Origin: Candidatus Kapaibacterium sp.
GTDB taxonomy: Bacteria; Bacteroidota; Ignavibacteria; Kapaibacteriales; UBA7675
Assembly: GCA_028284775.1 (NCBI GenBank)
Contig: JANQRB010000176.1
Coordinates: forward strand, 2,922-66,921
Direction of reading: 5' to 3'
Length of the DNA: 64,000 nt
The notes below the pieces were generated by a model. That model worked only from the letters and a program-made list of their open reading frames with translations. It searched no databases and was not told the origin of the DNA. The translations under genes were made by a program, and so were the position numbers. This document shows, one piece after another, positions 17,080-37,066 of this stretch. Every line of letters begins with the position of its first letter. Positions within the stretch are counted from its first letter, which is position 1.

Positions 17080-17560
17080 TCATCAATCCAAATAAATTAG
17101 CGTTCGGTATCTCAAACCCATTCCGGCTTGTATCGCTCGCACCGACAGCGCCGGGCATTAGCAACTAATTTCTCATTCTTTAGCCAGCTTTGCAAACAGG
17201 CAAACGATTTTAGTATTCGCCTGGTTTCCGTGAACAAAAAAAGAAACACGGTCTACGGCGCGATAGCCGATAAATCGGCTTGGTCCAAACGTGATGCACG
17301 CTGTTTACGACCTGAGATCAAAAATGTTGTGGTATGAGATTGGGCTTGCGTGCGAAGAGAAATTGCCGGTGCTACTTGGTGTCAATGACCGGAAAATTTT
17401 TCGCACATTCAACAGAAATTCTTTTGCACCCTGTTTTAGCCGTCGCTGTAATGGAACTTGCCAGGTATTCAATGAGTCAATATTTCAAAAATACAGACAC
17501 AATGTTATATTAAAAATTCAGCATACATACGTAGTTAAGCTCACTTGGAGGACTGTTCGT

Positions 17561-19552
17561 GTGAAATCTCCTACCGACAGCAAGAGTGACAATCAAGATG
17601 GCGCCAACCAACCAGGGCTCCGGCAGATGGAAATAGAAGAATTTCTGCGCCGGATTTATGACGGACAAAATGACCAGAAGCGCTTCGCCTTCTTCCTCGG
17701 CGCGGGCTGCTCGTCAAGCTCTGGGATTCCAACCGCCGGCGAACTGGTAAAAAATCATTGGCTTCCGCGCCTGCGTAAATTACTGGCGCCTGATCGTTCC
17801 GACCTCGATCAATGGGCCCGCGAAACAATAAAAGCCTATGATCCTGGGAATCCCGCTCAGTCCTATGGTGCGCTGATTGAACGACTGTTCCTGACCCCCG
17901 AAGAACGACAACAAGAGATCGAAAACCTTTGCGACGGCAAAACGCCTTCCTTCGGCTATGCCGTGCTGGCTCAACTCGTCGCCAGCAATCGTAATCGTTT
18001 TAATATAGTACTGACTACAAACTTCGATGATCTCATTGCCGACGCACTGTACCTCTACACGGAGGCAAGACCGCTCGTCATTCATCACGAGTCGTTGGCC
18101 GCATTCATCCGGCCGACGCGCAGCCGCCCGCTGGTCGTCAAACTTCACGGCGATCATCGTTTGTCGCCGCGCAACACTGCCCTCGAAACCAAGTCGATTG
18201 AACAGGAGATTCGCAAAAACACGGCGATGGTGCTCAACGATCGCGGCCTGATATTCATGGGCTACGGCGGGGCGGATCGCGGCATTATCGAGATGCTAAA
18301 TGGCCTGCCCACACATGCGCTGCCGTTTGGCGTTTTCTGGATTCACCCTAACGAACCTCTGGGTGCGATTCGAAGCTGGCTGGCCGATCGCGGTGGTTAT
18401 TGGGTTAAGAGCGGTCCATTTGATGAAGTCATGCTGCTCGCTCAAAGCGAATTCGAGCTTCCTCATCCGGACCAGGAACGTTTCAATCGTATTTTTGACG
18501 ACTACCATCGAAAGTTCCAGTTACTCTCGGCTTCGATCCAGGACAAGCCCGTAGGCGAAGCGGGAACAGAAGCACTGACTAGGGCGCGTGACGAGGCGGA
18601 AGCGCGATTCCCGGATTACTGGAAAGTAATAAGTGAAGCCGACCGCTATAGAAGTTCCAACCCTGATCGCGCCGACGAGTTATACAAACAAGGCGTAGAA
18701 CAGTTTCCAGACGCAGCTCCTCTCCTCGGCAGCTACGCAAGCTTCCTAATAGATCACCGCAAAGACTCCGACCGCGCTGAGTCAATGTTCAAACGGGCAC
18801 TGTTAGCAAATGCAAAAGACGCCATAAATCTCGGCAACTATGCAAACTTTCTCAAAAATTACCGCGAAGACTTCGACGGTGCTGAAACAAGGTACAAACA
18901 GGCGATGGAAGCAAATCCAAACAACGCCATAAACCTCGGAAACTACGCAACCTTCCTTTGGAAGAATCGCAGGGACTTCGACGGAGCTGAAGCAATGTAC
19001 AAACAGGCGATGGAAGCAAACCCTAAAGACGCCACAAACCTCGGTAACTACGCTGATTTCCTCGCGCACATCCGAACAGACTTGGACGGCGCTGAAACAA
19101 TGTACAAAAGGGCGATGGAAGTAGATCCAAATCTCACCATTTATCTCGCAAATCTGAGCGGACTTATGCTGGCGCGTGGCAAAGAAGAAGGCTTGACTCA
19201 TCTTCAGCGAGCGCTTGAACAATTGCAAAGCAAGCCCTATCCAACTGTCGAGCTCGAGTGTGCATTTTATCTCTATGCTCACGGACCCGCGGAGCAGCGC
19301 ACGAAAGCGTTGGAAACCGCAAGACGGCTGATAGAGTCAGGCGTTCGCTCGCCGGGATGGGATATGTCTCGTAATGTCCAACGAGCGCAAGAGGACAAGC
19401 ACCCGGAATCCCAGTGGTTGGAGAAATTGGCAAAGGTGATCGGCGATGAAGCTGAAGTTGAAGTACTGAACAATTGGAGCGCCTGGGCGAACATCAAATT
19501 CGAGAACAATTCGGACAATGAAGCAGGTAAAGAGCCACCGGCGGCAGGTTAG
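17561..19552 (+). CDS. SIR2-like (SIR2_2/ThsA-type) NAD-binding domain fused to a C-terminal TPR array; candidate NADase-type antiphage defence protein
   Basis: The SIR2_2 signature elements are FFLGAGCSSSSGIPTAGELVKNHW, NIVLTTNFDDLIADAL, VVKLHGDH and IFMGYGGAD. A C-terminal array of four or more 34-aa TPRs is present (xxNLGNYAxFLxxxRxDFDGAExxYKQAMEANPxx). I place the start at in-frame GTG 17561 because GGAGG lies at 17547-17551. The ORF track start at 17291 runs through AT-rich, unconserved-looking leader. Confidence 0.8.
   Translation: MKSPTDSKSDNQDGANQPGLRQMEIEEFLRRIYDGQNDQKRFAFFLGAGCSSSSGIPTAGELVKNHWLPRLRKLLAPDRSDLDQWARETIKAYDPGNPAQSYGALIERLFLTPEERQQEIENLCDGKTPSFGYAVLAQLVASNRNRFNIVLTTNFDDLIADALYLYTEARPLVIHHESLAAFIRPTRSRPLVVKLHGDHRLSPRNTALETKSIEQEIRKNTAMVLNDRGLIFMGYGGADRGIIEMLNGLPTHALPFGVFWIHPNEPLGAIRSWLADRGGYWVKSGPFDEVMLLAQSEFELPHPDQERFNRIFDDYHRKFQLLSASIQDKPVGEAGTEALTRARDEAEARFPDYWKVISEADRYRSSNPDRADELYKQGVEQFPDAAPLLGSYASFLIDHRKDSDRAESMFKRALLANAKDAINLGNYANFLKNYREDFDGAETRYKQAMEANPNNAINLGNYATFLWKNRRDFDGAEAMYKQAMEANPKDATNLGNYADFLAHIRTDLDGAETMYKRAMEVDPNLTIYLANLSGLMLARGKEEGLTHLQRALEQLQSKPYPTVELECAFYLYAHGPAEQRTKALETARRLIESGVRSPGWDMSRNVQRAQEDKHPESQWLEKLAKVIGDEAEVEVLNNWSAWANIKFENNSDNEAGKEPPAAG
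18727..19140 (+). repeat. Intragenic tandem repeats (period 102 nt = one TPR unit), about 4 copies with long near-identical stretches
   Basis: Units begin near 18829, 18931 and 19033. Blocks such as GTACAAACAGGCGATGGAAGCAAA recur at 18893 and 18996. A diverged copy lies near 19099. Confidence 0.7.
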
Positions 19553-21148: not shown

Positions 21149-21330
21149 ACAGGAGGTCCAATCGGGATTTTGGTGTCGGAGCTACGCTGGGTCGCAGCCA
21201 AATTATCGAAACGAGCCTAAATACGAAAATCTCGTCGGATGAGTGTTTACCGGTAAAATTCGGCGTGATTTTTTGCCCGCACTCCACGGATGGCAAGCTA
21301 AATTCAGCGGACAATCATTCAGGCTTTACT

Positions 21331-21349
21331 TAGTGTCAAAATAACACTA
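21331..21349. promoter_or_regulatory. Candidate NrtR operator upstream of nrtR: TAGTGT-N7-ACACTA palindrome
   Basis: The site is cTTAGTGTcaaaataACACTAtat, ending 11 nt before the nrtR ATG. A near-identical site sits at the nadV promoter. Confidence 0.5.
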
Positions 21350-21359
21350 TATTTGCCCA

Positions 21360-22025
21360 ATGAAAAAGCCGAACAATCCGATCGCAGCCGTCGACATGGG
21401 CATCTTCCGCTTCGATGGTGAAAGACTAAGCGTCTTTCTCGTGGAGTTGCTTCACGGCTCCTTCCGCGGACGACTGGCGCTCCCCGGCGCCCGCCTGGCC
21501 GCCGAAGAAAGCATGGAAGATGCGGCACTCCGCGTGTACCGGGAAGCAGGCGGCGATACGCCATGCTTCATCGAACAGGTTTATACATTCTCAGCTGTCG
21601 ACCGCGATCCGCGCAGCCGCGCGATCGCAACGGCCTATATGGCTTTTCCGCCGGACGGCTGCCCGCCATTTCAGCCTTGCAGTAAGTATGCCCGCGGCGC
21701 CTGGTACGATGTTTTCACGGTCCGGGACCTGGCCTACGATCATGAGCAGATTTCGCGGGTCTGCCGGCAGCGAATTGCCGCCAAGCTGAACTATACGACG
21801 ATTGCGCTGCTCTTGCTGCCGGAGGAATTTACGCTGACGGAAATGCAGACTCTCTATGAACTGTGCAGCGGCGAACAATTCGATAAACGCAACTTTCGCA
21901 AAAAGATCAAATCGATGAACATCATTGTGGAAACCGGTCGTCAACGAAGCGGTCGCAAAGCCCGTCCCGCAATGCTTTATCGCGCCAAACGGCGAAGCAT
22001 GGAGCTCGTTTCGCTCTTCCGCTAA
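21360..22025 (+). CDS. nrtR: NrtR-type Nudix-related transcriptional regulator of NAD metabolism (Nudix domain + C-terminal winged-helix)
   Basis: The N-terminal Nudix-like fold has a degenerate Nudix box (GRLALPGARLAAEESMEDAALRVYREAGG). The C-terminal ~90 aa match the NrtR DNA-binding domain pattern (ISRVCRQRIAAKLNYTTIALLLLPEEFTLTEMQTLYE...). The gene sits directly upstream of nadV, as in described NrtR regulons. Confidence 0.75.
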   Translation: MKKPNNPIAAVDMGIFRFDGERLSVFLVELLHGSFRGRLALPGARLAAEESMEDAALRVYREAGGDTPCFIEQVYTFSAVDRDPRSRAIATAYMAFPPDGCPPFQPCSKYARGAWYDVFTVRDLAYDHEQISRVCRQRIAAKLNYTTIALLLLPEEFTLTEMQTLYELCSGEQFDKRNFRKKIKSMNIIVETGRQRSGRKARPAMLYRAKRRSMELVSLFR

Positions 22026-22044
22026 AAATTTTTTTTGCCTCACT

Positions 22045-22063
22045 TAGTGTATTTTTTACACTT
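22045..22063. promoter_or_regulatory. Second candidate NrtR operator, immediately upstream of nadV: TAGTGT-N7-ACACTt
   Basis: The site is cacTTAGTGTattttttACACTTaaa, ending 3 nt before the annotated nadV ATG (22067). It shares both half-sites and the AT-rich 7-nt spacer with the site at 21331-21349. Confidence 0.5.
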
Positions 22064-22066
22064 AAA

Positions 22067-23737
22067 ATGCCGGTCCCATTGCTGGCAATGGAGTCCGGAG
22101 AAAGCGAGTCCCTCATGAGTCCGAAACAAGGTAATCCGCAACAGGTATTCCTGCCCCAGCGCAAAACCCACAGAACTCCGCGTCTATTGATGGCCGATGC
22201 CTACACCCTGGGCAGCGGCAAATTCCAGGCGCCCGTCGCACAGGAAAAATCGATATACTATCTCGCCTTTCGCCGCGCCCTGAACGATGTCGACCCAGAG
22301 TTGTATGCCGGGGATGACGAACGCATCGTATTCTGCGGCCTGCAGCGCATACTCGAAAGGCTGTTCTACGAGCCTGTCAGTCATGCCGAGATTGATGAAA
22401 CGCTGCGATTTCTGGCCCGCTTCAAAGCCACGTCGCAGGGCTTGCGGCGCTATCATTTCGACGAAACATTATGGCGCCGCGTCGTGGATGAATTTCAGGG
22501 CCGGCCGCCAATACGCATCGAAGCACTGCCGGAGGGCAGCGTGGCTTATCCCCACGAACCGGTCATACAGGTTAGCTCGCTTGTAGCGGGAATGGGTGAA
22601 TTGGCGGCGTGGTTCGAAAGCAAGATTGTCCAGGTCTGGAGCACGACCGAACGAGCGACCAGGGGACGCCACTGGTTCAAGTATCTGACGGAAATGATTG
22701 CCGAGGTCGATCCTGCCCTGGATCGCGAGGAGCGCTATTTTCTGGCGGCAACACTCACGCACGATTTCGGCGATCGCGGTGGAATCTGCGCGCAGGAATC
22801 CGAAGAGCTGGGAATGACGCACCTGTATTCATTCAGCGGCAGCGACACACTGGCGGGCGCCTACCAGGCCTGGAAAAACAGCGGCGAGCAGGCCGGCGCC
22901 GCAAGCTCGGTGGCAGCCCTGGCGCATCGCAGCGTGCAGCCCTGGCTCCGGGAAGGCGACAGCTACCGCAGCATCTATGACGCGGCCGACAATGGCGACT
23001 TCATTTCGATGGTCGCCGACTGTTATGACTACTTCGCTGCCGTGGATAATTATCTGCTGCCCCTGGCGCTCGAATCGGCCGCCGCCAGCAACGGTAAAAT
23101 TGTGGTTGCGCGGCCTGACAGCGGCGATCCGCTTGACTGCGTGCTCTACGTCTGCAATCTGGCTATTGCGCATGGTTTGTATACCGAATACCATGGCTAC
23201 AAGTATCCGACGACTCTCAAGTGTATCCAGGGCGACGGCATGTCCTTCGCCGTGATGAAACACATCTTCGAAGAACTTAAACAACGGCGATTAGCGCCCC
23301 ACGCCTGGCTGCTCTTCGGTGTCGGCGGCGGCTTGCGCAATCATCTGCAGCGTGATCACCTGGGCGCCAAATATGCCCTCTGCGCTGTCGGCAAGCAAGA
23401 CCGGCCGGTCATTAAATTGTCGGAGACGCCAGGTAAGTCGACACTCCCGGGACCTTTCAAGCTACGCCGCGGTGAAAGTTATCTGCGTTCAGCCACTACG
23501 ATCGCCCTGGCCGCTGAAGCCGGCGACAATGCGCTGATTGAATACTTTAACGGCGCGCGGGTCGAACGACCCTTTGGCCCGGGTCAGGATGATGATTTTG
23601 GCATCATTAGGCAACGCATTCAGGACGGCTTTGACGCGATGCCGCCCAGGATGCCACTGCCCGAGAAAGCATATCCGGCATCAGAGCTGGTGCTGCGGCA
23701 GAGGAAAGCAGAAGAAGAAGCTCGGAGACATAGTTAA
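22067..23737 (+). CDS. nadV: Nicotinamide phosphoribosyltransferase (NAMPT/NadV family)
   Basis: The NAMPT-family signatures present are RIEALPEGSVAYPHEPVIQV, LTHDFGDRG, SFSGSDTLAG and VARPDSGDP. The true start may be a downstream ATG (MESGES at ~22091 or MSPKQ at ~22115), since the operator abuts 22067. Confidence 0.85.
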   Translation: MPVPLLAMESGESESLMSPKQGNPQQVFLPQRKTHRTPRLLMADAYTLGSGKFQAPVAQEKSIYYLAFRRALNDVDPELYAGDDERIVFCGLQRILERLFYEPVSHAEIDETLRFLARFKATSQGLRRYHFDETLWRRVVDEFQGRPPIRIEALPEGSVAYPHEPVIQVSSLVAGMGELAAWFESKIVQVWSTTERATRGRHWFKYLTEMIAEVDPALDREERYFLAATLTHDFGDRGGICAQESEELGMTHLYSFSGSDTLAGAYQAWKNSGEQAGAASSVAALAHRSVQPWLREGDSYRSIYDAADNGDFISMVADCYDYFAAVDNYLLPLALESAAASNGKIVVARPDSGDPLDCVLYVCNLAIAHGLYTEYHGYKYPTTLKCIQGDGMSFAVMKHIFEELKQRRLAPHAWLLFGVGGGLRNHLQRDHLGAKYALCAVGKQDRPVIKLSETPGKSTLPGPFKLRRGESYLRSATTIALAAEAGDNALIEYFNGARVERPFGPGQDDDFGIIRQRIQDGFDAMPPRMPLPEKAYPASELVLRQRKAEEEARRHS

Positions 23738-24070: not shown

Positions 24071-27000
24071 TCACTGAATTCGCTGAAAGCCCGCCACTGA
24101 TCTACGGCCGTCCCTGTGTACAAACTGAATGAAATACATGCCGGGCGCCAGTCCCGCCGTTGAAATGTTAAATTCCCGGGTATCGGTCAGCTCACGTGAA
24201 AAATGGATAGCACCGTGCAGCGACAAGATTCTGGCGACACCGCTGACGTTTTCGTCGAAGCGCAGCCTAAGTTCGCCGGTCGTTGGGTTGGGAAAACTTG
24301 CTATACCAATCGAGGCGCTGCCGTCGGGCGGATTAACAATCCCGGTGCCGATAACAACTGTGACATCGTTTGACGTCAAGACAGGATAGGTGCCGCTGAA
24401 CATCCGTACTTTTGTGTTAAACACTTCGTCCAATGCGCTTCCGGACTTTATCGGCATAGCAAAGACAAACTCCAGTCTGTCATCCGGAACTACACTCTGT
24501 GGTTCGAAACTCGCGCGGGGAATGTTTAATCGATAGTGCCCCCCGGAACGATGTTCGACGAATCGGTCCTGGCGGTTGAAGTCGACAAGTGTCGGTCCCG
24601 CTGTCGAATATGACGTATCATAATCAATCCAGAACTCGAGCCGGCCCTTGTGACGCAGGTGGCCGCGATTGAGAGCTTCCAGGCGGAAATACACGGTGTC
24701 GCCGCCAGTTACGGCTGTCTGGCGGACAGGAGTGCCTTCATCGAGGATGTCGAGTTGTATGTTTCTCTCTTGCAAGGGCCAGGCAAAACATTGCTCCGTC
24801 AGCGGGTCATTTGGCTGGTCGGACTTTGCAAGCAGATCGAAGCAGACTTCATCGCGGCTCGTTTCCGTCGCTATCGCCACTGTAAGGTTTACTGTCCTTT
24901 CCTCCCAGGGCAGCAGGTCTGAAAATTTCTGTAAAATGATCGTCCCGTCCTCTCGTAATTCGCTTGCGCCATAGTCGCTCGATGAAGCGACAATCTCCAT
25001 AGTTGCACCGCCGGCGCTTAGCCAAACAGCACGGAAACGAGCGTCATTGGCACTCAAATTGCGGAATGTCAGTTCAATGCTGAAAAGGCCGGTTTCAATT
25101 AACGGTTCGACGACAAGTTCGGCAGCAGGCCTTGGAGTCGGCGGCGAGGGAATCGGCAATTCGATGTAGGCATTGTGGCCGGCGCTGTCCTCCAGGTCGA
25201 CCCAAAGGGCATTGTCGGCCCGACCGCAGGGCGGCAACCATTGTTGGCTTGCCTGGAGCCGGATTTTGTGTCGATATCCACTCAAGGGAACAGTGGCTTT
25301 GAAGGATCCGTCCGCAGCGGTGACGACGACATTATCGTCTTGCGAGACCACGACGGCTTCATTTGCCACTGCCGGTTCACCCGGATCGCGTATGCAATCG
25401 TTATCGAGGTCTTCGAACACCAGGCCGCGCAGTGTGAAATTTTCAACACTGCCGGGTTCGCAAATTTCGAAGCGCTCGATAATTCCCTCGCCGGATAGCG
25501 TCAGATACCCGTCTCCCTGCGGTGCAAACACCACATCGGTAAAATTTCGACCCAGGGTCGGACATTCCGATACGATCGAGCCTGTCTCCGTATCGAGCAC
25601 GTAAACATTTTTCGTCACTTTGTCCGCAGCCAGCAAATGACGCGAGTCAGGCATGAAGGCCACTTTGAATGCTCTGACATCGAAACGGCGATAGTTGCTT
25701 AGATTGACCTCCGGCCATGCCTGCGTTTCCCATACAGCGATGTAGTCACCCCGCGCAACCGCAAGCAATTGATCGTCAGGCGCAAAGACAGGCAGGACAC
25801 TCTGGTCCTGTTCCGCATCCGAAAGATTAGTGTTAATTTTCTTAAACTCGTCGGAGTTAAATGAGGCCAAACCTTTCTCATCGAATTTTAATCGTCTGTT
25901 GCCGGCATACTGAACGCTTTCAGGGTTGCCCGGACCTGTTTTTTGTGTTAGCAGATAGCCAAAATTACCATAGGCCAGGGCTGCGTTGTGCGCTGTTGCG
26001 AGACTTACCGTAAGGCCGATCTCCGTCGTGCTGAGCACCGACCGACTGTTCGCATCCAGCAAACTAAGCCACCCGACGGGATCAAGATCGTTGCCGCGAA
26101 AGTGGCCGAAGGCAAGCAGTAAAAAACGGCCGTCGCCGGTATAGGCAATCGCCTGCCTATCCACGTGGTCTGCATCGCTGGTCAGAGGGACTTCCTGCTC
26201 AGCGATCATTGCCCCCGAATAGACATCCCAGGTCTGCAAAACTATCACAGCCCGTTTGTGATCAGAGGCCAGGGTTAAACGGCGGCCATCAGCGGTAAAA
26301 TCAAGATTGCTGCCTCGATAGGGCGACAGCTCGATGCGATGACGCACTGTTCCATCGGCCTCGAGAATTCCGACAAGCGCCGCATTATCCGGCGATGTGA
26401 TATTGCTTTTGCGGGCTTTGTAGACGATCGATCCCCCGTCCGGCGCGAAGTCAAGATAGTCGACATGCCTATAGTCTGCCTGCCGCAGCCAACTAGCCCG
26501 GGCAAAATGTTTACTGAAGTCGCCGTCCACTTTCAGGGATTCGTTGTAAAAAGTTCCAGCTTCGGTATATATTTTCAAGGTCACAGTCTTCCGCCCGGCG
26601 GCATTGGCTGTAATACTAAGCGGAAGGTCTATGCAGGATGCCACTGCTAATGACAGGGGAAAAATGTTGTCGGTAAAGCTAAGGGCGGGCATGCCATCGC
26701 CCGGCATAACCTCGATGCCGAAGATCGTCAGGCTGACAGTGTTTGTGGAGCTATTGCATATTCGCAAAGTTTCGTTCAACGGCAGCCCCGGCTCCGCCTG
26801 ATAGATCGGCTCGGCGGGAGAATCATCCTTTAGGCGAAAAATCCTGATCTGTTTTCCCGGGTCGGACAACTCGATGATGGCGCGTTGCGATGGATACCAA
26901 TCCGTATCCACCACAATCTCGACCATGTCATCACTCTTGCGGGGACCATTAAACTGGAACTCGACTGTCTGTGATTGGCCGGATTCCAGGAAGACATCAT

Positions 27001-27643
27001 CATAACTCTCGGGAATGTCTATCGGCGAGAAAGCGCCGCGCGCCGGCCGGATTGCCTTGATGGGCAGGGGTAGCTGACCGGTGTTAATCAGACGAAAAGT
27101 TCCGATTGTCTTTTCGCTCAGATCATCATAGCGAATATCGATCCGATCAATCTTAATACCGGTTTCCCGATACTCGACACTCAGCTTGATCTCCTCGGAA
27201 TGATTTCCCCAACGAGTCCGAAGAAAGGTAAAAGGGCGCCCGAACATGGCTGTCGTCAATTTGAGCGGAATGGTAATGGTATCCGATTGCTCGGTCTGAA
27301 AGGGTGTCTGCGGCGCGCCTGCGGCAAATTCGAATCCCGCCTCGTCGGAAGCAAAACTCAAATCCGAAATCAACAATGGCGTGTGCGTCACCATTCGCAA
27401 ATTCACGATCGTGTCGACGCCCCGCGGCAATGACGGCCGTTCATAGATAAAACTCAGGCTTTGGCTGAGCAGCTGATCCCTGGACTCGTGGGCTTTGCCG
27501 TAGCTTTGCGGCTCAGGAATTTGCGGATATCCATACAGTCCGCTTATTGAACCCGACGACATCAGAGCAATCAAACAGAGTAACTGCCAACGAAACACCG
27601 ACATAGTATTGCCCTGCAAGTTTTTTGTGACTGTCATATTCAT
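24071..27643 (-). CDS. Large secreted multidomain protein (1,190 aa) with T9SS C-terminal sorting domain; beta-propeller-like and CarboxypepD_reg/SdrD-B-like modules
   Basis: The N-terminus has a signal peptide (RWQLLCLIALMSSGSISG). An internal module fits the Cna-B/CarboxypepD_reg pattern (RGLVFEDLDNDCIRDPGEPAVANEAVVV...TAADGSFKA). The C-terminal ~80 aa fit the T9SS CTD pattern (SFPNPTTGELRLRF...GMYFIQF...). Confidence 0.75.
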   Translation of the reverse strand: MNMTVTKNLQGNTMSVFRWQLLCLIALMSSGSISGLYGYPQIPEPQSYGKAHESRDQLLSQSLSFIYERPSLPRGVDTIVNLRMVTHTPLLISDLSFASDEAGFEFAAGAPQTPFQTEQSDTITIPLKLTTAMFGRPFTFLRTRWGNHSEEIKLSVEYRETGIKIDRIDIRYDDLSEKTIGTFRLINTGQLPLPIKAIRPARGAFSPIDIPESYDDVFLESGQSQTVEFQFNGPRKSDDMVEIVVDTDWYPSQRAIIELSDPGKQIRIFRLKDDSPAEPIYQAEPGLPLNETLRICNSSTNTVSLTIFGIEVMPGDGMPALSFTDNIFPLSLAVASCIDLPLSITANAAGRKTVTLKIYTEAGTFYNESLKVDGDFSKHFARASWLRQADYRHVDYLDFAPDGGSIVYKARKSNITSPDNAALVGILEADGTVRHRIELSPYRGSNLDFTADGRRLTLASDHKRAVIVLQTWDVYSGAMIAEQEVPLTSDADHVDRQAIAYTGDGRFLLLAFGHFRGNDLDPVGWLSLLDANSRSVLSTTEIGLTVSLATAHNAALAYGNFGYLLTQKTGPGNPESVQYAGNRRLKFDEKGLASFNSDEFKKINTNLSDAEQDQSVLPVFAPDDQLLAVARGDYIAVWETQAWPEVNLSNYRRFDVRAFKVAFMPDSRHLLAADKVTKNVYVLDTETGSIVSECPTLGRNFTDVVFAPQGDGYLTLSGEGIIERFEICEPGSVENFTLRGLVFEDLDNDCIRDPGEPAVANEAVVVSQDDNVVVTAADGSFKATVPLSGYRHKIRLQASQQWLPPCGRADNALWVDLEDSAGHNAYIELPIPSPPTPRPAAELVVEPLIETGLFSIELTFRNLSANDARFRAVWLSAGGATMEIVASSSDYGASELREDGTIILQKFSDLLPWEERTVNLTVAIATETSRDEVCFDLLAKSDQPNDPLTEQCFAWPLQERNIQLDILDEGTPVRQTAVTGGDTVYFRLEALNRGHLRHKGRLEFWIDYDTSYSTAGPTLVDFNRQDRFVEHRSGGHYRLNIPRASFEPQSVVPDDRLEFVFAMPIKSGSALDEVFNTKVRMFSGTYPVLTSNDVTVVIGTGIVNPPDGSASIGIASFPNPTTGELRLRFDENVSGVARILSLHGAIHFSRELTDTREFNISTAGLAPGMYFIQFVHRDGRRSVAGFQRIQ

Positions 27644-28413: not shown

Positions 28414-31400
28414 TCAGTCTTTTCCATTCTTCAGCGCGCGTTCGATACCCGCGACTCCTTTGTTAAGCGCGCGCATCTGGCGAACAGCTTCATCGAGGGT
28501 ATCGCCGCTATCTCCGCCGCCGAAAAGCTGATTGTCCCGAAAGGTGGTTTTAATGTGTTCCCAACGCTCTTCTTCCTCCGGACTCAACATCCCATTGATC
28601 GCGCGGAATTTAAGCAGGTTGGCTTCAGCATTACCGGCAAGCGTCTGCGACTCATTGACATAATGACTGAGAACAAGGTTTTTCAGTTCTTCGTCATTCA
28701 TCATCGGCAGTACTTTCTCGGCGATTTTGTTCATGTCGCGATACGAGCCCTGCAAGAGAAAGGGGGGCTCCGTGCGGTAGGCGTCGGCTGTAGCGGCCGA
28801 TTCGATGTACTGTTGGTTTACGCGCAGGATGACGTCACGGACCCATATCAGCTTGCGAACGACATTAACATACTCATTCATATCGGCGGCGGAATGATCA
28901 CCGTAAAATTCGATCCCCTCCCGCCGGTCGGAATCCGCCCACTGGATAAAGGCGTAGAGATCTTCCCGATGGCGGGCGGCAAGGCGACTCAGGCTTACAT
29001 TCGAGGTCATACAGTTTTCCAGATAGCTGAGTTTAAAGGCTTCGCCCTCACCGCTGCCGATATCCCCTAAGTTGTAGGTATCGGCTCGGTTCGCGAGCAT
29101 ATCGGGAATAGTGAACTTTTCGCCGCTTTCGGTATAGGGATTGCCGGCCATAACAACCGCAACCTTGCGACCGCGTAAATCGTGCGTTGTGGATTTTCCC
29201 CGGTACACGCCTTCAATTTTACGCTGCGCATCGCAGAGCGAGATAAACTTCTGGAGAAATTCCGGATGACAATGTTGAATGTCATCCACATATATCATGA
29301 CGTTGTCGCCCATTTCAAAAGCCAGGTTGAGCTTTTCCATTTCTTCGCGCGCAGCGGCGTTCGGGGCTTCGCCAGGGTCGAGCGATGTAACGCGATGGCC
29401 GATGGCAGGTCCGTTAATTTTCATGAAGAAAAGACCCAGACGATTGGCTACATATTCCATCAGGGTCGTTTTGCCATAGCCGGGCGGTGATATAAGAAGC
29501 AACAGGCCCATTCGGTCGGTGCGCGTCTCGACGCCGGCCTGCCCCATTTGTTTGGCGAGGTTATCGCCTATCAAGGGCAAATAAACACGGTCGATCAGAC
29601 GATTGCGAACAAATGATGTCAGAACCCGCGGCATAAACTCGCTCAGACGCATTTCTTCACGTGTTTTGTCAGCCAATTCCTTTTTGCCCTGGCTGAATGT
29701 GCGGAACAGGGGTACGACCTCCCTGCAATAATAACTAAGTCTTTGAATGAATTCATTGTAGTCAAGCCTGTACACGCTCTTTGTGATATGCTGATGAACA
29801 CCGTTCATTCCGCTGATTGTTCGTCGGACGGAAATGTCGATCAGGTTTTCGTTAGCCAGCTCGTGCTTGTTAAATATCATTGATGCCGCCTCGTCCAGAT
29901 AGCGTTCTCTGAACTCGTCATTGCCGGTGGTCAGGAAAGCCCGAAGCCAGCTCCGCACTACCTGGTAGCGTCCGATCGCATCGCCGCCGATGCGGTCGAG
30001 AGCTCCGTTGAAGGCGGCAATAAAGTTGTTGGCGTACAGATGATCGGTGAATGCCTGCAGGAGTGCGGCAGCCTCGGGAGCGATGGCAAATCCATTCCCG
30101 CGCGTCAACTCATAAAACAGGTATTCTCCCGCTTCCTCTGTAGTCGACTCGGCGAACAAGGAACTACTTACTGCAAACTCATGCAGCAATTGCTGCAGAT
30201 CCTTCACATAGGTCCGATGGGTACGGGCTGAAGGAAAGAGCTTTAACATTTCACCGATACCGTTGAGACGTCCGGCCAAAAGGTCGCGTTGCTCGCCGTC
30301 GATGAAATTTTGCCAGTAGACGATGGCGCAGGCGCGTGCCGTCGACGAATAGCGCAGTAAACCGATGCGATGATGGAGATCAAGAAGGGCTTTCAACAGG
30401 AGTGCGGCATCACTATCATGCACGCCCTTGATGTATCCTTCGTCATAGCGGCCGGCACAGAATTGCCGTACATAATCCGCAAGCTTGTCAGCCGGAGCAT
30501 CCCGCAACGCTTCGGCTTCCCTGCCATCACCGGCGGTCACTTGCCGAAGAATCGTGTAGGCCAGAAATTCGCCACGATAAACATCATCATTTTCCGACGG
30601 AAGCTGTTGCTGCCAGACAGGGCGTGTCGCCATGAACGAGGCATCCTCGACTTCACGAAAATACTTCGTACCAGTGAGATGATAAAACATCGAATCATCG
30701 CGTCTGACGATTGTCACGTCTAAAACTTCGGTATTAACCGAAAAGTTGTGTTTGCCGAGCCGAATGACATTGCTGCCGTCTACAAACAATTCGGAACGAT
30801 CCTTAAGCTGACGCAGCGCTTCTTCCTTGGCAGTCTTCAGGCGGGTCTGCACGTCATCGGCCTTAACACTATCGCCAATTTCATTGAGCGAATCGATAAT
30901 ATCCCGAACCTTTTCAATCATGAGATCCGCCGCGAAATAGGAGCTGATCTCTTCAGCGCTGGTCATAGTGTCGGAGCGTTTGCTTACACCCGTCAGGATG
31001 CGCTCGGCCGATGCCAATAATGCCAGCGAACGACGATTGCGCGCTTCCACCAGCGCCAGTTTTTTCGATTCAAAGGCATTGTAGACTTCTTCCCGCTTTT
31101 CCACCAGGATTGCTGCGAATTCATCAAATTCCGTAAAACGCGCTTCCAGCTCTTCAAGCTGCACCATCAGCTTCGTCAGGAATTCATCGCAGCGGGCAGG
31201 TGTATCGCACAAGTCGAGATAGTTAATTAAGCCCTGGCTCACCAGTTTGATTTGAGCGGCGAATTCGGCGCGGCCCTCCGCCTCCGCCAGCTGCTGTTTC
31301 CGCCCTCGCAACTGCGCACGAACCTGATTGAGCTTTGCAAAATTGGCAGAGATGTTGTCGATTATCAGCGTTGTTTTACTACTGTCTCCGATTTTGAGGT

Positions 31401-33333
31401 TGCTGACAATTTCGATTAACAACTCCAGATCACCGGCAACAGCGTCGATCGCTGCTTCACATTCAAGTGCGGCTCTCACCTTTTCAAGATCGGCAACAGC
31501 GCTTTCGATTCCATCGACGCGCTCCTTATATGATTGAAGAGCATCCTCCCGCATCAGAAAGTCGATACACTGCGCGGAGAGTTCGTCAGTTTTGCTTTTC
31601 ACTCTTTCATCGAGACCGACAACCAGATCGGTATCAACATAGCGTAGTTCCTGCAAGGCGATAAGCGTCCCTCGGAGCGTTCGCAGAGCCGCCAGGTATT
31701 CCACGAATTCGCGCAGCTCATTCAATGAAGCGAGGCGAATGGCTTTCAAAAGTTCTTCGGTCCTGCCGGCGGCGGCGGCAACCTGCCGGCTTGTATCCTT
31801 CTTAACTGCCTGCACTTTCTCAAATTCGTCAACCGCAGAGCTTGCCGCGGACCTGATGGATGCCAGCGCCAACCCGAGGTTGTGCGCCCGGTCGTCGTTT
31901 ATCCAGAAAAATGTGTCGAGAATATCGCCGCTGCGCTTGACAATGTCCAGGTAGAGATTCGCGTAATTGTCTTCCTTCTGCAGCAAGGAATACAACTCAT
32001 GGCATTCGGCCATACAGCGAACGACATCTTTGTTGCCGAGTTGATAGAGATAACTGTCTTCATGGACCGTCATCTTGAAGTTGGGGCCGACATATGGAGT
32101 TTGCCAGATCTGTAAAACATGATGCTTCTGCGGTTCTAGTTCGGCCTTGAAGTACAGCAGCTTTCCATCTTCGAACAATGAAAATCCATTGCAGATGATG
32201 GGTGTCTGTACGCGCTGCTCGATGAGGTTGTACGACAGCAGAACATACACGCCGGCATCACGATTATAAAAGATGAAAAGGATATCTTCGCCGTTCGGCG
32301 CCGGAATTCGCCGTTCGAAGACCATTTCGTTCAGATTCGTCTCAAAAGCAAAGTATTCACCGGTCGCCAGATAATAGCCCTTGGGAAAGATAAATCCGTG
32401 CCCTTCCGGCAATAGTATTGTCGCTTCATCCAGGGCATCGATGCGCAAAGCGCTGCCCGTCTTTTCATTAAACAACACATACCGGAAGTCTTGCTCGCGA
32501 TAGGGTCGGATTCGTAAGATAATGATATGGCCAAGCAGAGCATACTGAAGTTCAAGATCATCGAGTTGCTGTTCCCGCTCTTGTACCGCTTCAGCGTATA
32601 TGCCTTCGCCCGTATCGGTATTGTCTTCGATTTTCAGAACGAGCTGCCCCTTTTGCAGTCCGACAAACAGGCGGTCGGCAATCGCGATATGCGGAAATTC
32701 GCCTTCGCGCTGCAGGTCACGGCTGCTACGGATCCAGTCGAACTCATGCTGTGGCGGATAACGCAGTTCGTGATCGCTGCGATTGTCGACATACTCGAGC
32801 CTATGATCCCCGTGCATCAACCACTTAAACACCTTGAAATCGTCAATGCTCTTGCCGACGCGGAACTTCATGTACAGATAAGGGCTGCGAAAGGCAAACT
32901 TGACAAAATGGGTCTGCTTATAGTACTTGTACAATCCTTTGAAGTCACGCTTGAAGTTGTCGTCTTGGATGAGCGACGCAGTGATCGGTTTGAAATGATC
33001 ACCGTCAAAACTATAGACTGACAATACATCTTCGACTGTTGTTTCGGATTTGAGGCCGATATGGACATTGTAGCCGAAGATAAAATCTTCGCCGACAGAC
33101 ACCATATCGCGCGGCACGCAATTGTTCACCGTTGTGACGCGTTCGCTGCTTAACAATCCGGTGGCGATGGAGCCGAATACTTCTTTGCGCTCTTTGTTTA
33201 ACAGGTTGAGACGCTGAAGCAAGTCCTTGGCTGCTTTTAGCAGACGTTCGCGAATAAGCTCATAACTGCCGCCGTCGAGCCCCTGGTTGCTTGAATCAGT
33301 TTTATCTTCTGTTGAAAGTGGACTTTCCGCCAT
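28414..33333 (-). CDS. Giant (1,639 aa) AAA+ ATPase of the AAA_5 (dynein/MoxR/McrB-related) type with ~1,200-aa non-catalytic N-terminal region; function unknown
   Basis: A single AAA_5-like module lies near residues ~1230-1400. It has Walker A (LLISPPGYGKTTLMEY), Walker B (MIYVDDIQH), sensor-1 (VAVVMAGNPYTES) and an arginine-finger region (RADTYNL). The N-terminal region is long and mixes coiled-coil and aromatic-rich beta segments. I recognise no nuclease, helicase or peptidase motif. The gene lies 333 bp downstream of the flotillin gene on the same strand. Confidence 0.7.
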   Translation of the reverse strand: MAESPLSTEDKTDSSNQGLDGGSYELIRERLLKAAKDLLQRLNLLNKERKEVFGSIATGLLSSERVTTVNNCVPRDMVSVGEDFIFGYNVHIGLKSETTVEDVLSVYSFDGDHFKPITASLIQDDNFKRDFKGLYKYYKQTHFVKFAFRSPYLYMKFRVGKSIDDFKVFKWLMHGDHRLEYVDNRSDHELRYPPQHEFDWIRSSRDLQREGEFPHIAIADRLFVGLQKGQLVLKIEDNTDTGEGIYAEAVQEREQQLDDLELQYALLGHIIILRIRPYREQDFRYVLFNEKTGSALRIDALDEATILLPEGHGFIFPKGYYLATGEYFAFETNLNEMVFERRIPAPNGEDILFIFYNRDAGVYVLLSYNLIEQRVQTPIICNGFSLFEDGKLLYFKAELEPQKHHVLQIWQTPYVGPNFKMTVHEDSYLYQLGNKDVVRCMAECHELYSLLQKEDNYANLYLDIVKRSGDILDTFFWINDDRAHNLGLALASIRSAASSAVDEFEKVQAVKKDTSRQVAAAAGRTEELLKAIRLASLNELREFVEYLAALRTLRGTLIALQELRYVDTDLVVGLDERVKSKTDELSAQCIDFLMREDALQSYKERVDGIESAVADLEKVRAALECEAAIDAVAGDLELLIEIVSNLKIGDSSKTTLIIDNISANFAKLNQVRAQLRGRKQQLAEAEGRAEFAAQIKLVSQGLINYLDLCDTPARCDEFLTKLMVQLEELEARFTEFDEFAAILVEKREEVYNAFESKKLALVEARNRRSLALLASAERILTGVSKRSDTMTSAEEISSYFAADLMIEKVRDIIDSLNEIGDSVKADDVQTRLKTAKEEALRQLKDRSELFVDGSNVIRLGKHNFSVNTEVLDVTIVRRDDSMFYHLTGTKYFREVEDASFMATRPVWQQQLPSENDDVYRGEFLAYTILRQVTAGDGREAEALRDAPADKLADYVRQFCAGRYDEGYIKGVHDSDAALLLKALLDLHHRIGLLRYSSTARACAIVYWQNFIDGEQRDLLAGRLNGIGEMLKLFPSARTHRTYVKDLQQLLHEFAVSSSLFAESTTEEAGEYLFYELTRGNGFAIAPEAAALLQAFTDHLYANNFIAAFNGALDRIGGDAIGRYQVVRSWLRAFLTTGNDEFRERYLDEAASMIFNKHELANENLIDISVRRTISGMNGVHQHITKSVYRLDYNEFIQRLSYYCREVVPLFRTFSQGKKELADKTREEMRLSEFMPRVLTSFVRNRLIDRVYLPLIGDNLAKQMGQAGVETRTDRMGLLLLISPPGYGKTTLMEYVANRLGLFFMKINGPAIGHRVTSLDPGEAPNAAAREEMEKLNLAFEMGDNVMIYVDDIQHCHPEFLQKFISLCDAQRKIEGVYRGKSTTHDLRGRKVAVVMAGNPYTESGEKFTIPDMLANRADTYNLGDIGSGEGEAFKLSYLENCMTSNVSLSRLAARHREDLYAFIQWADSDRREGIEFYGDHSAADMNEYVNVVRKLIWVRDVILRVNQQYIESAATADAYRTEPPFLLQGSYRDMNKIAEKVLPMMNDEELKNLVLSHYVNESQTLAGNAEANLLKFRAINGMLSPEEEERWEHIKTTFRDNQLFGGGDSGDTLDEAVRQMRALNKGVAGIERALKNGKD

Positions 33334-36379: not shown

Positions 36380-37066
36380 TTAGCTTTCAAATGGCTGTAT
36401 GTAATACAGGTTTTCAGTTTCGTTGAACTCGACCACGACAGCCTGCTGCCCCTTATTGATAGGTCGGCCGCCGAAAGTCTTGGCATTCAGCAATAGCGGC
36501 GCTCCGGACGTCGGCACCTCGATTTGTCCCAGACGATTTGATTCGACGCTGGTAATGGCAATGCCGACTTTGCCGACAATGACCCGGCGCTCGCGCTCTT
36601 CCTTCTGCATCGACGCAAACATTTTTTTCAGCGGCGCGGTTATCAACTTTGTCGCCAGAAGACTTATGCCAAAGTTGGGCAGGAAGACGAGTAATGCGGT
36701 CCAGCCGGAGTCAGCGGCATTGAAATAGTGATTACCCAGAACCGATCCAACCCAGAGAAAAAGGGCGAAAAAAGAGATGACAATCATGAACGGCACCGTG
36801 CCGAGATTGACAAATGCCAGCAGCGATTGCACCCAACCGAGTTCCGTTCCGCCATCAATGTCGGCACCCGCATCAACATCCGCGTCAAGATTGACATCGG
36901 CGGAAACATCGACATCCGTGTCGAGGTCGGCATCCAAATCAAAGTCCAGGAAGCTGATGTCCAGGGCTCCGAACATCACGATGCTCCAGTAAAGCAGCAC
37001 CAGCAAAAGCAAAAGAGTAAAAGGTAGGTTGAGTATTGAAAAAGAAACCTGTATCAATTCAGCCAT
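36380..37066 (-). CDS. NfeD-like / YqiJ-family membrane protein (flotillin operon partner, OB-fold C-terminus)
   Basis: Two N-terminal TM helices are followed by an acidic D-x-D repeat stretch (DLDADLDTDVDVSADVNLDADVDAGADID). More TM segments follow. The C-terminus is a beta-rich ~70 aa (GKVGIAITSV...GQIEVPTSGAPLLLNAKTF). It sits directly upstream of the flotillin gene in the classic yqiJ-yqiK arrangement. Confidence 0.6.
   Translation of the reverse strand: MAELIQVSFSILNLPFTLLLLLVLLYWSIVMFGALDISFLDFDLDADLDTDVDVSADVNLDADVDAGADIDGGTELGWVQSLLAFVNLGTVPFMIVISFFALFLWVGSVLGNHYFNAADSGWTALLVFLPNFGISLLATKLITAPLKKMFASMQKEERERRVIVGKVGIAITSVESNRLGQIEVPTSGAPLLLNAKTFGGRPINKGQQAVVVEFNETENLYYIQPFES

What the first reader, a model, noticed from the sequence alone, without database searches (positions are those of the whole stretch)
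21327..22069. nrtR-nadV module with two copies of a TAGTGT-N7-ACACTA palindrome: predicted autoregulated NAD-salvage operon
A Nudix/winged-helix NrtR-type regulator is followed 41 nt later by a NAMPT-family nicotinamide phosphoribosyltransferase. Both promoters carry the same imperfect palindrome with an AT-rich 7-nt spacer. The sites are cTTAGTGTcaaaataACACTAt at 21329-21350 and cTTAGTGTattttttACACTTa at 22043-22064. The second site abuts the nadV start codon. Sharing one site between the two promoters of a regulator-target pair is the classic signature of an operator.
Basis: partly seen in the sequence, partly recalled or inferred. Interest (0 to 1): 0.55.

Follow-up and report, generated by a model that had tools for sequence, protein, structure and literature searches.

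The report
NrtR repressor boxes controlling nicotinamide salvage
A regulator gene and the adjacent vitamin-B3 (nicotinamide) recycling enzyme gene each carry the regulator's standard DNA docking site, so this is an ordinary, well-understood type of self-controlled NAD-salvage switch found here in an uncultured bacterium.

Summary
Two 21-bp palindromes lie exactly where stated: TTAGTGTCAAAATAACACTAT at 21330-21350 and TTAGTGTATTTTTTACACTTA at 22044-22064. One precedes an NrtR-family gene (21360-22025). The other lies between that gene and a NAMPT/NadV gene (22067-23737).

They are not chance. A PWM built only from sites in other genomes scores them 26.3 and 27.7 bits. The next best hit in 64 kb is 9.6, and 100 shuffles peak at 17.1.

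The box sits at the same promoter position in seven other orthologous loci. It matches the published NrtR signature (21-bp palindrome, GT-N7-AC core). Its GTGT-N7-ACAC core is the one seen in the BtAraR-DNA crystal structure. Every base-contacting residue named for BtAraR except wing Lys204 (Ala201 here) is identical in this protein.

Box 1 fills the 17-nt spacer of a sigma-70-like promoter (TTTACT/TATATT) that ends 6 nt before the ATG. This implies autorepression of a leaderless mRNA. Box 2 probably blocks read-through or a weak internal promoter.

Three points stay unproven: the effector (ADP-ribose is inferred only), the real nadV start codon (22067, 22088 or 22115), and whether nadV has its own promoter.

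Verdict: a new member of a known kind, of low novelty.

The parts
21325..21330 (+). -35-like hexamer TTTACT of the nrtR promoter; its last base is the first base of box 1
   Evidence: Promoter scan. Orthologs carry TTGACT, TTGTTT or TTGCGA at the same position.
21330..21350 (.). NrtR box 1, TTAGTGTCAAAATAACACTAT. The 21-bp palindromic operator fills the 17-nt promoter spacer and overlaps the -10.
   Evidence: PWM built from orthologs only: 26.3 bits. Same position in seven other orthologs.
21348..21353 (+). -10-like hexamer TATATT, 6 nt upstream of the nrtR ATG. This implies a leaderless or near-leaderless mRNA.
   Evidence: A conserved TAxxxT hexamer lies 5-7 nt before the start codon in 7 of 8 loci, with no Shine-Dalgarno sequence.
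21360..22025 (+). [quoted passage not shown] Recognition segment D175-K176-R177-N178-F179-R180-K181 and wing residue R202.
   Evidence: Pfam PF21906. PDB 5bs6 at 3e-27 and 3gz5 at 3e-23. Ortholog alignment A1. DNA-contact mapping from PMC4666351.
22044..22064 (.). NrtR box 2, TTAGTGTATTTTTTACACTTA, lying 18 nt after the nrtR stop codon and in front of nadV
   Evidence: PWM 27.7 bits. Equivalent second boxes lie between nrtR and the next gene in L081, L082 and L172.
22097..22100 (+). GGAG, the only Shine-Dalgarno-like element upstream of nadV. It lies 14 nt before the third in-frame ATG (22115).
   Evidence: Read from the sequence. Non-leaderless genes in the ortholog loci use AGGAG/GGAG 5-9 nt before the ATG.
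22067..23737 (+). nadV: long-form nicotinamide phosphoribosyltransferase. The longest ORF is 556 aa; alternative starts lie at 22088 and 22115.
   Evidence: Pfam NAPRTase and NAMPT_N. PDB NAMPT matches at 1e-33 to 1e-39, with HDFGxRG, GSDT, the His of ALAH, RPDSG, IQGDG, GGGL and RD conserved. Clade alignment A2.

Best explanation
The two palindromes are operators for the NrtR-family repressor encoded between them.

A dimer of the 221-aa protein reads the GTGT half-sites with its winged-helix recognition helix (DKRNFRK) and wing arginine. At box 1 the bound dimer covers the spacer and the -10 of the nrtR promoter (TTTACT-17-TATATT). It therefore excludes RNA polymerase and represses its own, probably leaderless, transcript. 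At box 2, 18 nt past the nrtR stop, it limits expression of the nicotinamide phosphoribosyltransferase NadV. It could do so by blocking polymerase reading through from the nrtR promoter, or by occluding a weak internal promoter.

A small-molecule signal of NAD turnover binds the catalytically degenerate Nudix-like domain, releases the protein from DNA and induces nicotinamide salvage. By analogy with characterised NrtRs, that signal is most likely ADP-ribose.

Shown here: the sites, their significance, their conservation, the match of the DNA-contact residues and the promoter overlap. Inferred: repression, the identity of the effector, the operon structure and the leaderless start.
For: 1. The sites are unique and highly significant in the window.
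2. Phylogenetic footprint. The same box lies at the same place in L081, L082, L083/84, L087, L088, L172/173 and L174, whose regulators are 50-61% identical to the window's. In all but L088 it is flanked by a -35-like hexamer and overlaps a -10-like hexamer 5-7 nt from the start codon.
3. Second boxes lie between nrtR and the next gene in L081, L082 and L172.
4. The box matches the published family signature, a 21-bp palindrome with a GT-N7-AC core. ADP-ribose releases two NrtRs from DNA in vitro (PMC2330246). Mycobacterial NrtR is an ADPR-released auto-repressor (PMC6800001).
5. The BtAraR-DNA crystal used GCAAAAGTGTTACTTTTACACCCATGC. There D178, K179, R180, N181, R183, K184 and R205 'define the GTGT motif' (PMC4666351). 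All seven are identical in the window protein (D175, K176, R177, N178, R180, K181, R202; alignment). All but K181 (nearly invariant) are invariant in its orthologs.
6. The same box occurs in 109 of 159 loci encoding about 40%-identical family members. 62% of those hits fall in the 270 nt upstream of nrtR. It directly precedes pncB-nrtR-pncA in Novipirellula, as published for the Pirellula group. pncB or pncA adjoin nrtR in more than 20 of these loci.
7. The Nudix box is degenerate (G-x6-E-x7-R-V-Y-R-E-A), so the domain is a sensor and not an enzyme.
8. NadV keeps all NAMPT catalytic motifs.
Against: - The effector is not established. Of the named SoNrtR ADP-ribose contacts, only the R98 equivalent (R85) is kept. 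The R41, N43 and K76 positions are L30, H32 and A63. Y10 and F15 fall in an N-terminal extension that is absent here.
- The best solved relative is the arabinose sensor BtAraR, not an ADPR sensor.
- Both proteins fall well below the NCBIfam equivalog cut-offs (108 vs 400 and 197 vs 405).
- In most close orthologs the boxed downstream gene is not a recognisable NAD gene.
- One ortholog sub-clade (L001, L085/86) has no box within 4 kb.
- No promoter consensus was detected at box 2.
- The distant loci were retrieved with a peptide pattern that is the recognition helix itself. This biases them toward the same box.
- There is no expression or binding data.
Confidence: 0.82

Rival explanations
1. 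The operator-repressor pairing is the same, but the effector is not ADP-ribose. The Nudix-like pocket would sense another metabolite, for example NAD itself (as reported for Corynebacterium NdnR), NMN, nicotinamide riboside, a nucleoside or a sugar.
For: Three of the four alignable SoNrtR ADPR contacts are replaced (R41 to L30, N43 to H32, K76 to A63), and the adenine-stacking N-terminal extension is missing. The family is known to include NAD-responsive and arabinose-responsive members (PMC4666351). The closest solved relative is BtAraR. Partner genes in the sister loci include a nucleoside-2-deoxyribosyltransferase-like protein. In Pedobacter the same box flanks glycolytic genes.
Against: The window's regulated gene is NadV, whose substrate nicotinamide is released together with ADP-ribose when NAD is cleaved. 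R85 matches the ADPR-contacting R98 of SoNrtR, where the arabinose sensor has Gly. The arabinose contact R34 of BtAraR is Leu here. ADPR is the effector in all three NAD-linked NrtRs cited as tested in vitro.
Confidence: 0.3
2. nadV has its own NrtR-controlled promoter, with box 2 overlapping it. One candidate is CTCACT at 22039-22044, an 18-nt spacer and TAAAAT at 22063-22068, with translation starting at 22115. This is the first reader's two-promoter picture, as opposed to an operon with box 2 as an internal roadblock.
For: By analogy with box 1, the hexamers flanking box 2 occupy the -35 and -10 positions, and TAAAAT matches the -10 consensus at 5 of 6 positions (read). The published nrtR-#prs-nadV loci place the operator after nrtR. 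A transcription start near 22075 would leave a 40-nt leader containing the GGAG before ATG 22115.
Against: The consensus scan found no promoter there, and the -35 candidate is poor. In L081 and L172 a promoter of that geometry would start transcription inside or after the Shine-Dalgarno sequence. No terminator follows nrtR, so read-through from the nrtR promoter is expected anyway.
Confidence: 0.4
3. The palindromes are not protein operators of this regulator. They could be chance AT-rich inverted repeats, sites for another factor, or RNA hairpins (a terminator or attenuator after nrtR).
For: The simple pattern count alone is only modestly significant (7 of 100 shuffles). Box 2 can form a 6-bp hairpin in RNA.
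Against: The PWM from independent genomes gives 26-28 bits against a shuffle maximum of 17. The box is conserved in position, across orthologs whose flanking genes are unrelated. The DNA-contact residues are identical to those of a crystallised GTGT-binding relative. The fold of the intergenic RNA is not unusually stable (z = -1.3), the hairpin is weak and AU-rich, and no U-tract follows it.
Confidence: 0.03

Closest known systems
Shewanella oneidensis NrtR (SO1979) and its nrtR-#prs-nadV locus (PMC2330246; PDB 3GZ5/3GZ6/3GZ8)
   Same: It has the same two-domain architecture: a degenerate Nudix-like domain plus a winged helix. The regulator gene lies immediately upstream of nadV, with the operator after nrtR. 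The operator is a 21-bp palindrome with a GT-N7-AC core. It acts as a repressor. The full-length alignment gives E = 3e-23.
   Different: There is no prs gene here. Single boxes replace the tandem pair. There is an additional autoregulatory box inside the nrtR promoter. The recognition segment differs (DKRNFRKK here, GKSFRRR in SoNrtR). Several ADPR contacts are not conserved. The NadV is a long form of 530-560 aa.
Bacteroides thetaiotaomicron AraR (BT0354; PDB 5BS6/5DD4; PMC4666351)
   Same: It is the best solved relative (3e-27). The DNA-contact residues named in the paper are identical except wing K204 (A201 here), and the operator core GTGT-N7-ACAC is the same. The crystallised operator scores 15.8 bits with the PWM. 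The Nudix signature is degenerate.
   Different: AraR senses L-arabinose and controls ara genes. Its arabinose contact R34 is Leu here. Its Gly89 is Arg here, as in the ADPR sensor. There are no sugar genes in the window's locus.
Pirellula-group #pncB-nrtR-pncA operon (PMC2330246), seen here in Novipirellula rosea (L077)
   Same: It has the same box (TTAGTGTATTGAAAACACTAA, 20.7 bits) directly upstream of an operon that contains nrtR and NAD-salvage genes.
   Different: It uses salvage route I (PncA/PncB) and not NadV. There is one box ahead of the operon, not one on each side of nrtR. The regulator is about 36% identical.
Mycobacterium smegmatis NrtR (PMC6800001)
   Same: It is a demonstrated auto-repressor of the NrtR family. 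It is released from DNA by ADP-ribose and has an inactive Nudix motif.
   Different: Its operator differs (GTTTTCGA-N7-TCGAAAAC). It controls de novo synthesis genes (nadABC). It is additionally regulated by acetylation.
Characterised NAMPT/NadV enzymes (human NAMPT; Xanthomonas 7YQO; phage KVP40-type NadV)
   Same: The catalytic motifs are conserved.
   Different: Identity is only about 26-30%, and the score is below the NCBIfam equivalog cut-off. The protein belongs to a separate 530-560-aa clade with a conserved C-terminal extension. Its nearest relatives (59-60%) lie on phage-like contigs, and a 52% homolog lies in a 635-kb uncultured phage.

Membership tests
NrtR family (Nudix-related transcriptional regulators) | N-terminal Nudix-fold domain fused to a C-terminal NrtR-type winged-helix DNA-binding domain | tested here: met
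   PF21906 NrtR_WHD at 9e-23. Alignment over residues 8-210 to the solved structures 5bs6 and 3gz5 covers both domains.
NrtR family (Nudix-related transcriptional regulators) | Impaired Nudix signature GX5EX7REUXEEXGU, so the domain is a sensor and not a hydrolase. This is typical of the family but not universal. | tested here: met
   The window protein has G43-x6-E50-x7-R58-V-Y-R-E62-A63. Two of the three REUXEE glutamates are lost, and the same holds in the orthologs. There is no Pfam NUDIX hit.
NrtR family (Nudix-related transcriptional regulators) | Cognate operator is a roughly 21-bp palindrome with a GT-N7-AC core, near its own gene or its targets | tested here: met
   Two such boxes flank nrtR. 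They are conserved in the orthologs. The definition comes from PMC2330246.
NrtR family (Nudix-related transcriptional regulators) | Genomic linkage to NAD biosynthesis or salvage genes | tested here: met
   nadV lies 41 nt downstream. Linkage is only partial in the close orthologs: a degenerate nadV paralog in L081 and non-NAD or unknown partners elsewhere.
NrtR family (Nudix-related transcriptional regulators) | DNA binding relieved by ADP-ribose | not testable with these tools
   Only residue mapping was possible. The R98 equivalent is kept, while the R41, N43 and K76 equivalents are changed.
NCBIfam NF050029 'ADPR responsive transcriptional repressor NtrR' (equivalog) | Score at or above the curated cut-off of 400 bits | tested here: not met
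   108 bits. The protein is a family member but not an equivalog of that model.
Bacteroidetes AraR subgroup of the NrtR family | Arabinose-contact residues R34, R86 and H131, Gly at position 89, and ara-gene context | tested here: not met
   R34 is L30 here and G89 is R85; R86 and H131 are kept (R82, H128). There are no arabinose genes in the window.
NAMPT / NadV (nicotinamide phosphoribosyltransferase) | NAMPT_N and type-II PRTase catalytic domains | tested here: met
   PF18127 at 5.5e-07 and PF04095 at 1.2e-16, both above their gathering scores. NAMPT structures match at 1e-33 to 1e-39.
NAMPT / NadV (nicotinamide phosphoribosyltransferase) | Catalytic and substrate residues: Tyr18, Phe193, Arg196, Asp219, His247, Arg311, Asp313, Gly353-Asp354, Gly383-Gly384, Arg392. 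This is human NAMPT numbering, recalled from my own knowledge. | tested here: met
   The aligned motifs DAYT, HDFGDRG, GSDT, ALAHRS, RPDSGD, IQGDG, GVGGGL and QRD match human NAMPT. They are invariant in the clade. Asp219, which sets nicotinamide over nicotinate specificity, is present.
NAMPT / NadV (nicotinamide phosphoribosyltransferase) | NCBIfam NF006629 equivalog cut-off of 405 bits | tested here: not met
   197 bits. This is a divergent long sub-clade.
NAMPT / NadV (nicotinamide phosphoribosyltransferase) | Nicotinamide + PRPP to NMN activity | not testable with these tools
   An enzyme assay is needed.

The most novel reading that the evidence does not exclude
In this uncultured clade the position behind nrtR, guarded by the second box, acts as an exchangeable 'cargo slot'. 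It holds an active long-form NadV (window), a catalytically dead NadV paralog (L081), a conserved nucleoside-2-deoxyribosyltransferase-like protein (three lineages) or an unknown 184-aa protein (L082). If all of these answer to the same NAD-turnover signal, the uncharacterised cargos would be new NAD- or ADP-ribose-handling proteins. The window's NadV, whose nearest relatives sit on phage-like contigs, would then be a virus-type salvage enzyme captured under host NrtR control. It might also buffer NAD loss caused by the SIR2-type NADase-like gene two genes upstream.
Probability: 0.15. Interest if true: 0.5.

Novelty: new member of a known kind. Interest (0 to 1): 0.2.

Why it matters
It gives a confident regulatory annotation, with operator, promoter and repressor, for a gene pair in an uncultured lineage related to MAGs labelled Calditrichia and Gemmatimonadota. 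It shows that one well-defined box, TTAGTGTA-N5-TACACTAA, is shared by NrtR-family proteins with a DKRNFRK recognition helix across many bacterial phyla and some archaeal MAGs. That box can therefore be used directly for regulon prediction in metagenomes. It does not change what is known about how NrtR regulators work.

Tried and rejected
- The genome and metagenome scans with the ortholog alignment returned almost only family members of about 40% identity. Just one close ortholog came back (L001), so close orthologs had to be fetched one by one.
- Site sequences from the 2008 NrtR paper were not available, because no supplement is held. The 2009 SoNrtR structure paper is not held. One literature query failed on a term that was too short.
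- I tested for a terminator after nrtR and found no convincing one.
- I tested for an independent sigma-70 promoter at box 2. None passed the scan.
- I looked for a GC anomaly that would suggest recent transfer of nadV and found none.
- I looked for other NAD genes in window positions 1-48 kb and found none.
- I tried to identify the partner proteins of the sister loci (376, 184 and 133-165 aa) with Pfam, NCBIfam and PDB. The results were a weak Nuc_deoxyri_tr2 hit and the NadV-paralog relationship; otherwise nothing.
- I considered and rejected AraR-type sugar regulation (residues and context do not fit), an RNA hairpin or terminator role for box 2, and chance.
- I did not run structure prediction, because full-length sequence matches to solved NrtR-family structures already settle the fold.
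Full report
**1. Observation**

The sequence is exactly as described. cTTAGTGTcaaaataACACTAt lies at 21329-21350 and cTTAGTGTattttttACACTTa at 22043-22064. The first ends 9 nt before the ATG of a 221-aa ORF (21360-22025). The second begins 18 nt after that ORF's stop codon and ends 2 nt before the first ATG of a 556-aa ORF (22067-23737). The gap between the two ORFs is 41 nt.

Pattern counts show these are the only two matches in 64 kb. For TAGTGT-N7-ACACTA with up to 2 mismatches, 0.45 are expected and 7 of 100 shuffles reach two. For the exact core GTGT-N7-ACAC, 0.22 are expected and 2 of 100 reach two.

A sharper and non-circular test used a symmetrised 21-bp weight matrix. It was built only from ten sites found in other genomes. 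It scores the window sites 27.7 and 26.3 bits. The next best position in the window scores 9.6, and the maximum over 100 shuffled windows is 17.1.

**2. The two genes**

The first protein carries the NrtR winged-helix domain (PF21906, 9e-23). It aligns over residues 8-210 to two solved NrtR-family regulators: Bacteroides AraR (5bs6, 3e-27) and Shewanella NrtR (3gz5, 3e-23).

Pfam finds no active-type NUDIX domain in it. The Nudix box reads G43-x6-E50-x7-R58-V-Y-R-E62-A63, so two of the three glutamates of REUXEE are lost. The same holds in 22 orthologs. This is the pattern described for non-catalytic, ligand-sensing NrtR proteins (PMC4666351; PMC6800001).

It scores far below the NCBIfam 'NtrR' equivalog cut-off (108 vs 400). 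It is therefore a family member, not an equivalog of a characterised protein.

The second protein has the NAMPT_N and NAPRTase domains. It matches NAMPT structures at 1e-33 to 1e-39. In the residue-level alignment to human NAMPT it keeps HDFGxRG, G-S-D-T, the histidine of A-L-A-H, RPDSG, IQGDG, GGGL and RD. By my knowledge of human NAMPT these correspond to Phe193/Arg196, Asp219, His247, Arg311/Asp313, Gly353-Asp354, Gly383-384 and Arg392.

It belongs to a populous clade of 530-560 residues at 50-60% identity in which these positions are invariant. It is only 26-29% identical to annotated phage NadV enzymes. It also falls below the NCBIfam equivalog cut-off (197 vs 405).

**3. Conservation of the box**

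The closest regulators (45-67% identity) come from uncultured bacteria. One record is labelled Calditrichia and one Gemmatimonadota.

In L081, L082, L083/84, L087, L088, L172/173 and L174 the regulators are 50-61% identical to the window's. The same palindrome ends 8-12 nt before the regulator's start codon (2 nt in L088). The genes flanking these loci are unrelated to one another. The conserved element therefore travels with the regulator.

In L081, L082 and L172/173 a second copy lies between the regulator and the next gene, as in the window. One sub-clade (L001, L085/86) lacks the box, which I cannot explain.

**4. Promoter anatomy**

Anchoring on the box gives the same layout in seven of eight loci. 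A -35-like hexamer (TTGACT, TTTACT, TTGTTT or TTGCGA) ends on the first base of the 21-mer. A 17-nt spacer follows, made up entirely of box sequence. A -10-like hexamer (TATAAT, TATACT, TATATT or GATATT) starts at box position 19. Then come 5-7 nt and the start codon, with no Shine-Dalgarno sequence.

In the window this is TTTACT (21325-21330), 17 nt, then TATATT (21348-21353), also found by the consensus scan. The ATG follows 6 nt later.

From this I infer two things. A bound dimer would occlude RNA polymerase, which is classical autorepression. And the nrtR mRNA is leaderless or nearly so. The ortholog N-termini support ATG 21360 as the start, because no later Met is conserved.

**5. Box 2 and nadV**

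No terminator-like structure follows nrtR. The fold of 21960-22075 is not unusually stable (z = -1.3). No promoter passed the consensus scan at box 2.

In the orthologs the second box is followed by AGGAG or GGAG and the start codon 15-27 nt later. In the window the only GGAG (22097-22100) precedes the third in-frame ATG (22115). The conserved core of the NadV clade begins at residue 29 (LPxRK), so ATG 22067, 22088 and 22115 are all admissible.

Two readings remain:
- An nrtR-nadV operon in which box 2 is an internal roadblock.
- A weak internal promoter (CTCACT, 18 nt, then TAAAAT at 22063-22068) that box 2 overlaps. This would exclude ATG 22067 as the start.

I cannot decide between them computationally.

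**6. Comparison with known operators**

[quoted passage not shown] It lists nrtR-#prs-nadV in Shewanella, Chromobacterium and Cytophaga, and #pncB-nrtR-pncA in the Pirellula group. It shows that ADP-ribose abolishes DNA binding of two NrtRs (PMC2330246).

The BtAraR-DNA crystal used GCAAAAGTGTTACTTTTACACCCATGC. According to that paper, Asp178, Lys179, Arg180, Asn181, Arg183 and Lys184 of helix alpha-6 and Arg205 of the wing 'define the GTGT DNA sequence motif' (PMC4666351).

Through the ungapped alignment these are D175, K176, R177, N178, R180, K181 and R202 of the window protein. All seven are identical to BtAraR, and all but K181 (nearly invariant) are invariant in alignment A1. The one named base contact that differs is wing Lys204, which is Ala201 here. 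This supplies a structural reason why this protein should read this box.

**7. Breadth of the box**

Scanning 159 loci that encode family members of about 40% identity gives at least one box of 18 bits or more in 109 loci. These loci come from Gammaproteobacteria, Planctomycetota, Bacteroidota, Chloroflexota, Patescibacteria and archaeal MAGs. Of the 155 hits, 96 fall in the 270 nt upstream of nrtR, which is 4.3% of the sequence.

In Novipirellula rosea the box directly precedes pncB-nrtR-pncA. pncB adjoins nrtR in 11 loci and pncA in about 20.

There is a caveat. These loci were retrieved with the peptide DKRNFRKK, which is the recognition helix itself. The sample is therefore enriched for proteins that read the same DNA.

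In Pedobacter the same box flanks pfk and gapdh. The box therefore reports the DNA-binding subtype, not the effector or the pathway.

**8. Effector**

The AraR paper names the residues that distinguish ADP-ribose binding in SoNrtR from arabinose binding in BtAraR. I mapped them through the alignments.

The window protein keeps the equivalents of SoNrtR R98 (R85; this is Gly in AraR) and of the shared R86 and H131 (R82, H128). At the R41, N43 and K76 positions it has L30, H32 and A63. It also lacks the N-terminal segment that carries the adenine-stacking Y10 and F15.

ADP-ribose remains the best guess. NAD cleavage yields ADP-ribose together with nicotinamide, the NadV substrate, and all the NAD-linked NrtRs cited as tested respond to it. 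This step is inference, and I give roughly 0.3 to a different ligand.

**9. Verdict**

This is a canonical NrtR-type operator pair, an autoregulated regulator and a NadV target, so it is a new member of a known kind.

The only mildly unusual features are these:
- The operator sits exactly within the promoter spacer of a leaderless transcript.
- The NadV is the divergent long form, whose nearest relatives lie on phage-like contigs.
- The boxed partner gene varies among sister lineages. It includes a catalytically dead NadV paralog in L081 and a conserved Nuc_deoxyri_tr2-like protein.

Noticed in passing
window 17291-19552 (+): A 753-aa protein has a SIR2_2 domain and TPR repeats. Its SIR2 part matches the SIR2 effectors of short-pAgo defence systems (PADLOC Aga_SIR2, 2.8e-39). 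No Argonaute gene is adjacent. It lies two genes upstream of nrtR-nadV. SIR2-type NADases would produce ADP-ribose and nicotinamide, the presumed NrtR signal and the NadV substrate. The linkage is not seen in any ortholog locus, so it may be coincidence.
   Followed up: partly
window 21325-21362; L081, L082, L083, L087, L172, L174 at the same relative position: The nrtR promoter ends 5-7 nt before the start codon in 7 of 8 orthologs, and there is no Shine-Dalgarno sequence. Downstream genes in the same loci do use AGGAG. This points to a conserved leaderless mRNA for the regulator.
   Followed up: partly
L081 4746-5876: The gene behind the second box is a 376-aa NadV paralog that has lost its catalytic motifs (QPGRKD for RPDSGD; SLAEKQQSKR for GVGGGLRN). 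It looks like a NAMPT-derived pseudoenzyme still under NrtR control.
   Followed up: partly
L083/L084 4669-5070; L087 4671-5087; L172 4125-4622: A small protein of 133-165 aa with a weak Nuc_deoxyri_tr2 match is the conserved downstream partner of nrtR in three lineages. The copies are mutually 36-42% identical. In L172 it is preceded by its own box. It has no solved relative and its function is unknown.
   Followed up: partly
L169 1265-3936; L170 3501-5120; phage record LR745206.1: The closest NadV homologs (59-60%) lie on contigs full of small unannotated ORFs. In L169 a bifunctional NMN adenylyltransferase/Nudix gene lies directly upstream (stop and start codons overlap). In L170 an RNA ligase gene lies about 0.8 kb upstream. 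A 52% homolog lies in a 635-kb uncultured phage. None of these carries the NrtR box.
   Followed up: partly
L001; L085/L086 (regulators P0012-like and P0014): This ortholog sub-clade keeps the DKRNFRKK recognition helix, yet no box of 16 bits or more lies within about 4 kb. L085 has GGTGT-N23-ACACC upstream instead. Unexplained.
   Followed up: no
L032 (Pedobacter montanisoli) 866, 3856, 5730: The same box flanks a pfk, unknown gene and gapdh cluster and a BadF-type kinase / beta-eliminating lyase pair. No NAD genes are involved. This suggests a same-box NrtR-family regulator with a carbon-metabolism regulon.
   Followed up: partly
L088 1949-1969: A near-perfect box (TTAGTGTAAAAAACACACTAA, 24.5 bits) lies 34 nt upstream of a Band_7/SPFH gene, 2 kb from nrtR.
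   Followed up: no
window 28414-33333 (-), with 33667-35904 (-) and 36380-37066 (-): A 1639-aa protein (DUF3686 'ATPase involved in DNA repair', DUF7902 and an AAA domain) lies next to two sizeable ORFs with no Pfam match. This may be an uncharacterised multi-gene system.
   Followed up: no
window 24071-27643 (-) and 42530-45760 (-): Two large secreted-type proteins are present. The first has a weak, sub-threshold match to the T9SS C-terminal sorting domain (Por_Secre_tail, 24.9 bits vs cut-off 27) and the second has beta-propeller and DUF7948 domains. This is weakly consistent with an FCB-group or related uncultured lineage.
   Followed up: no
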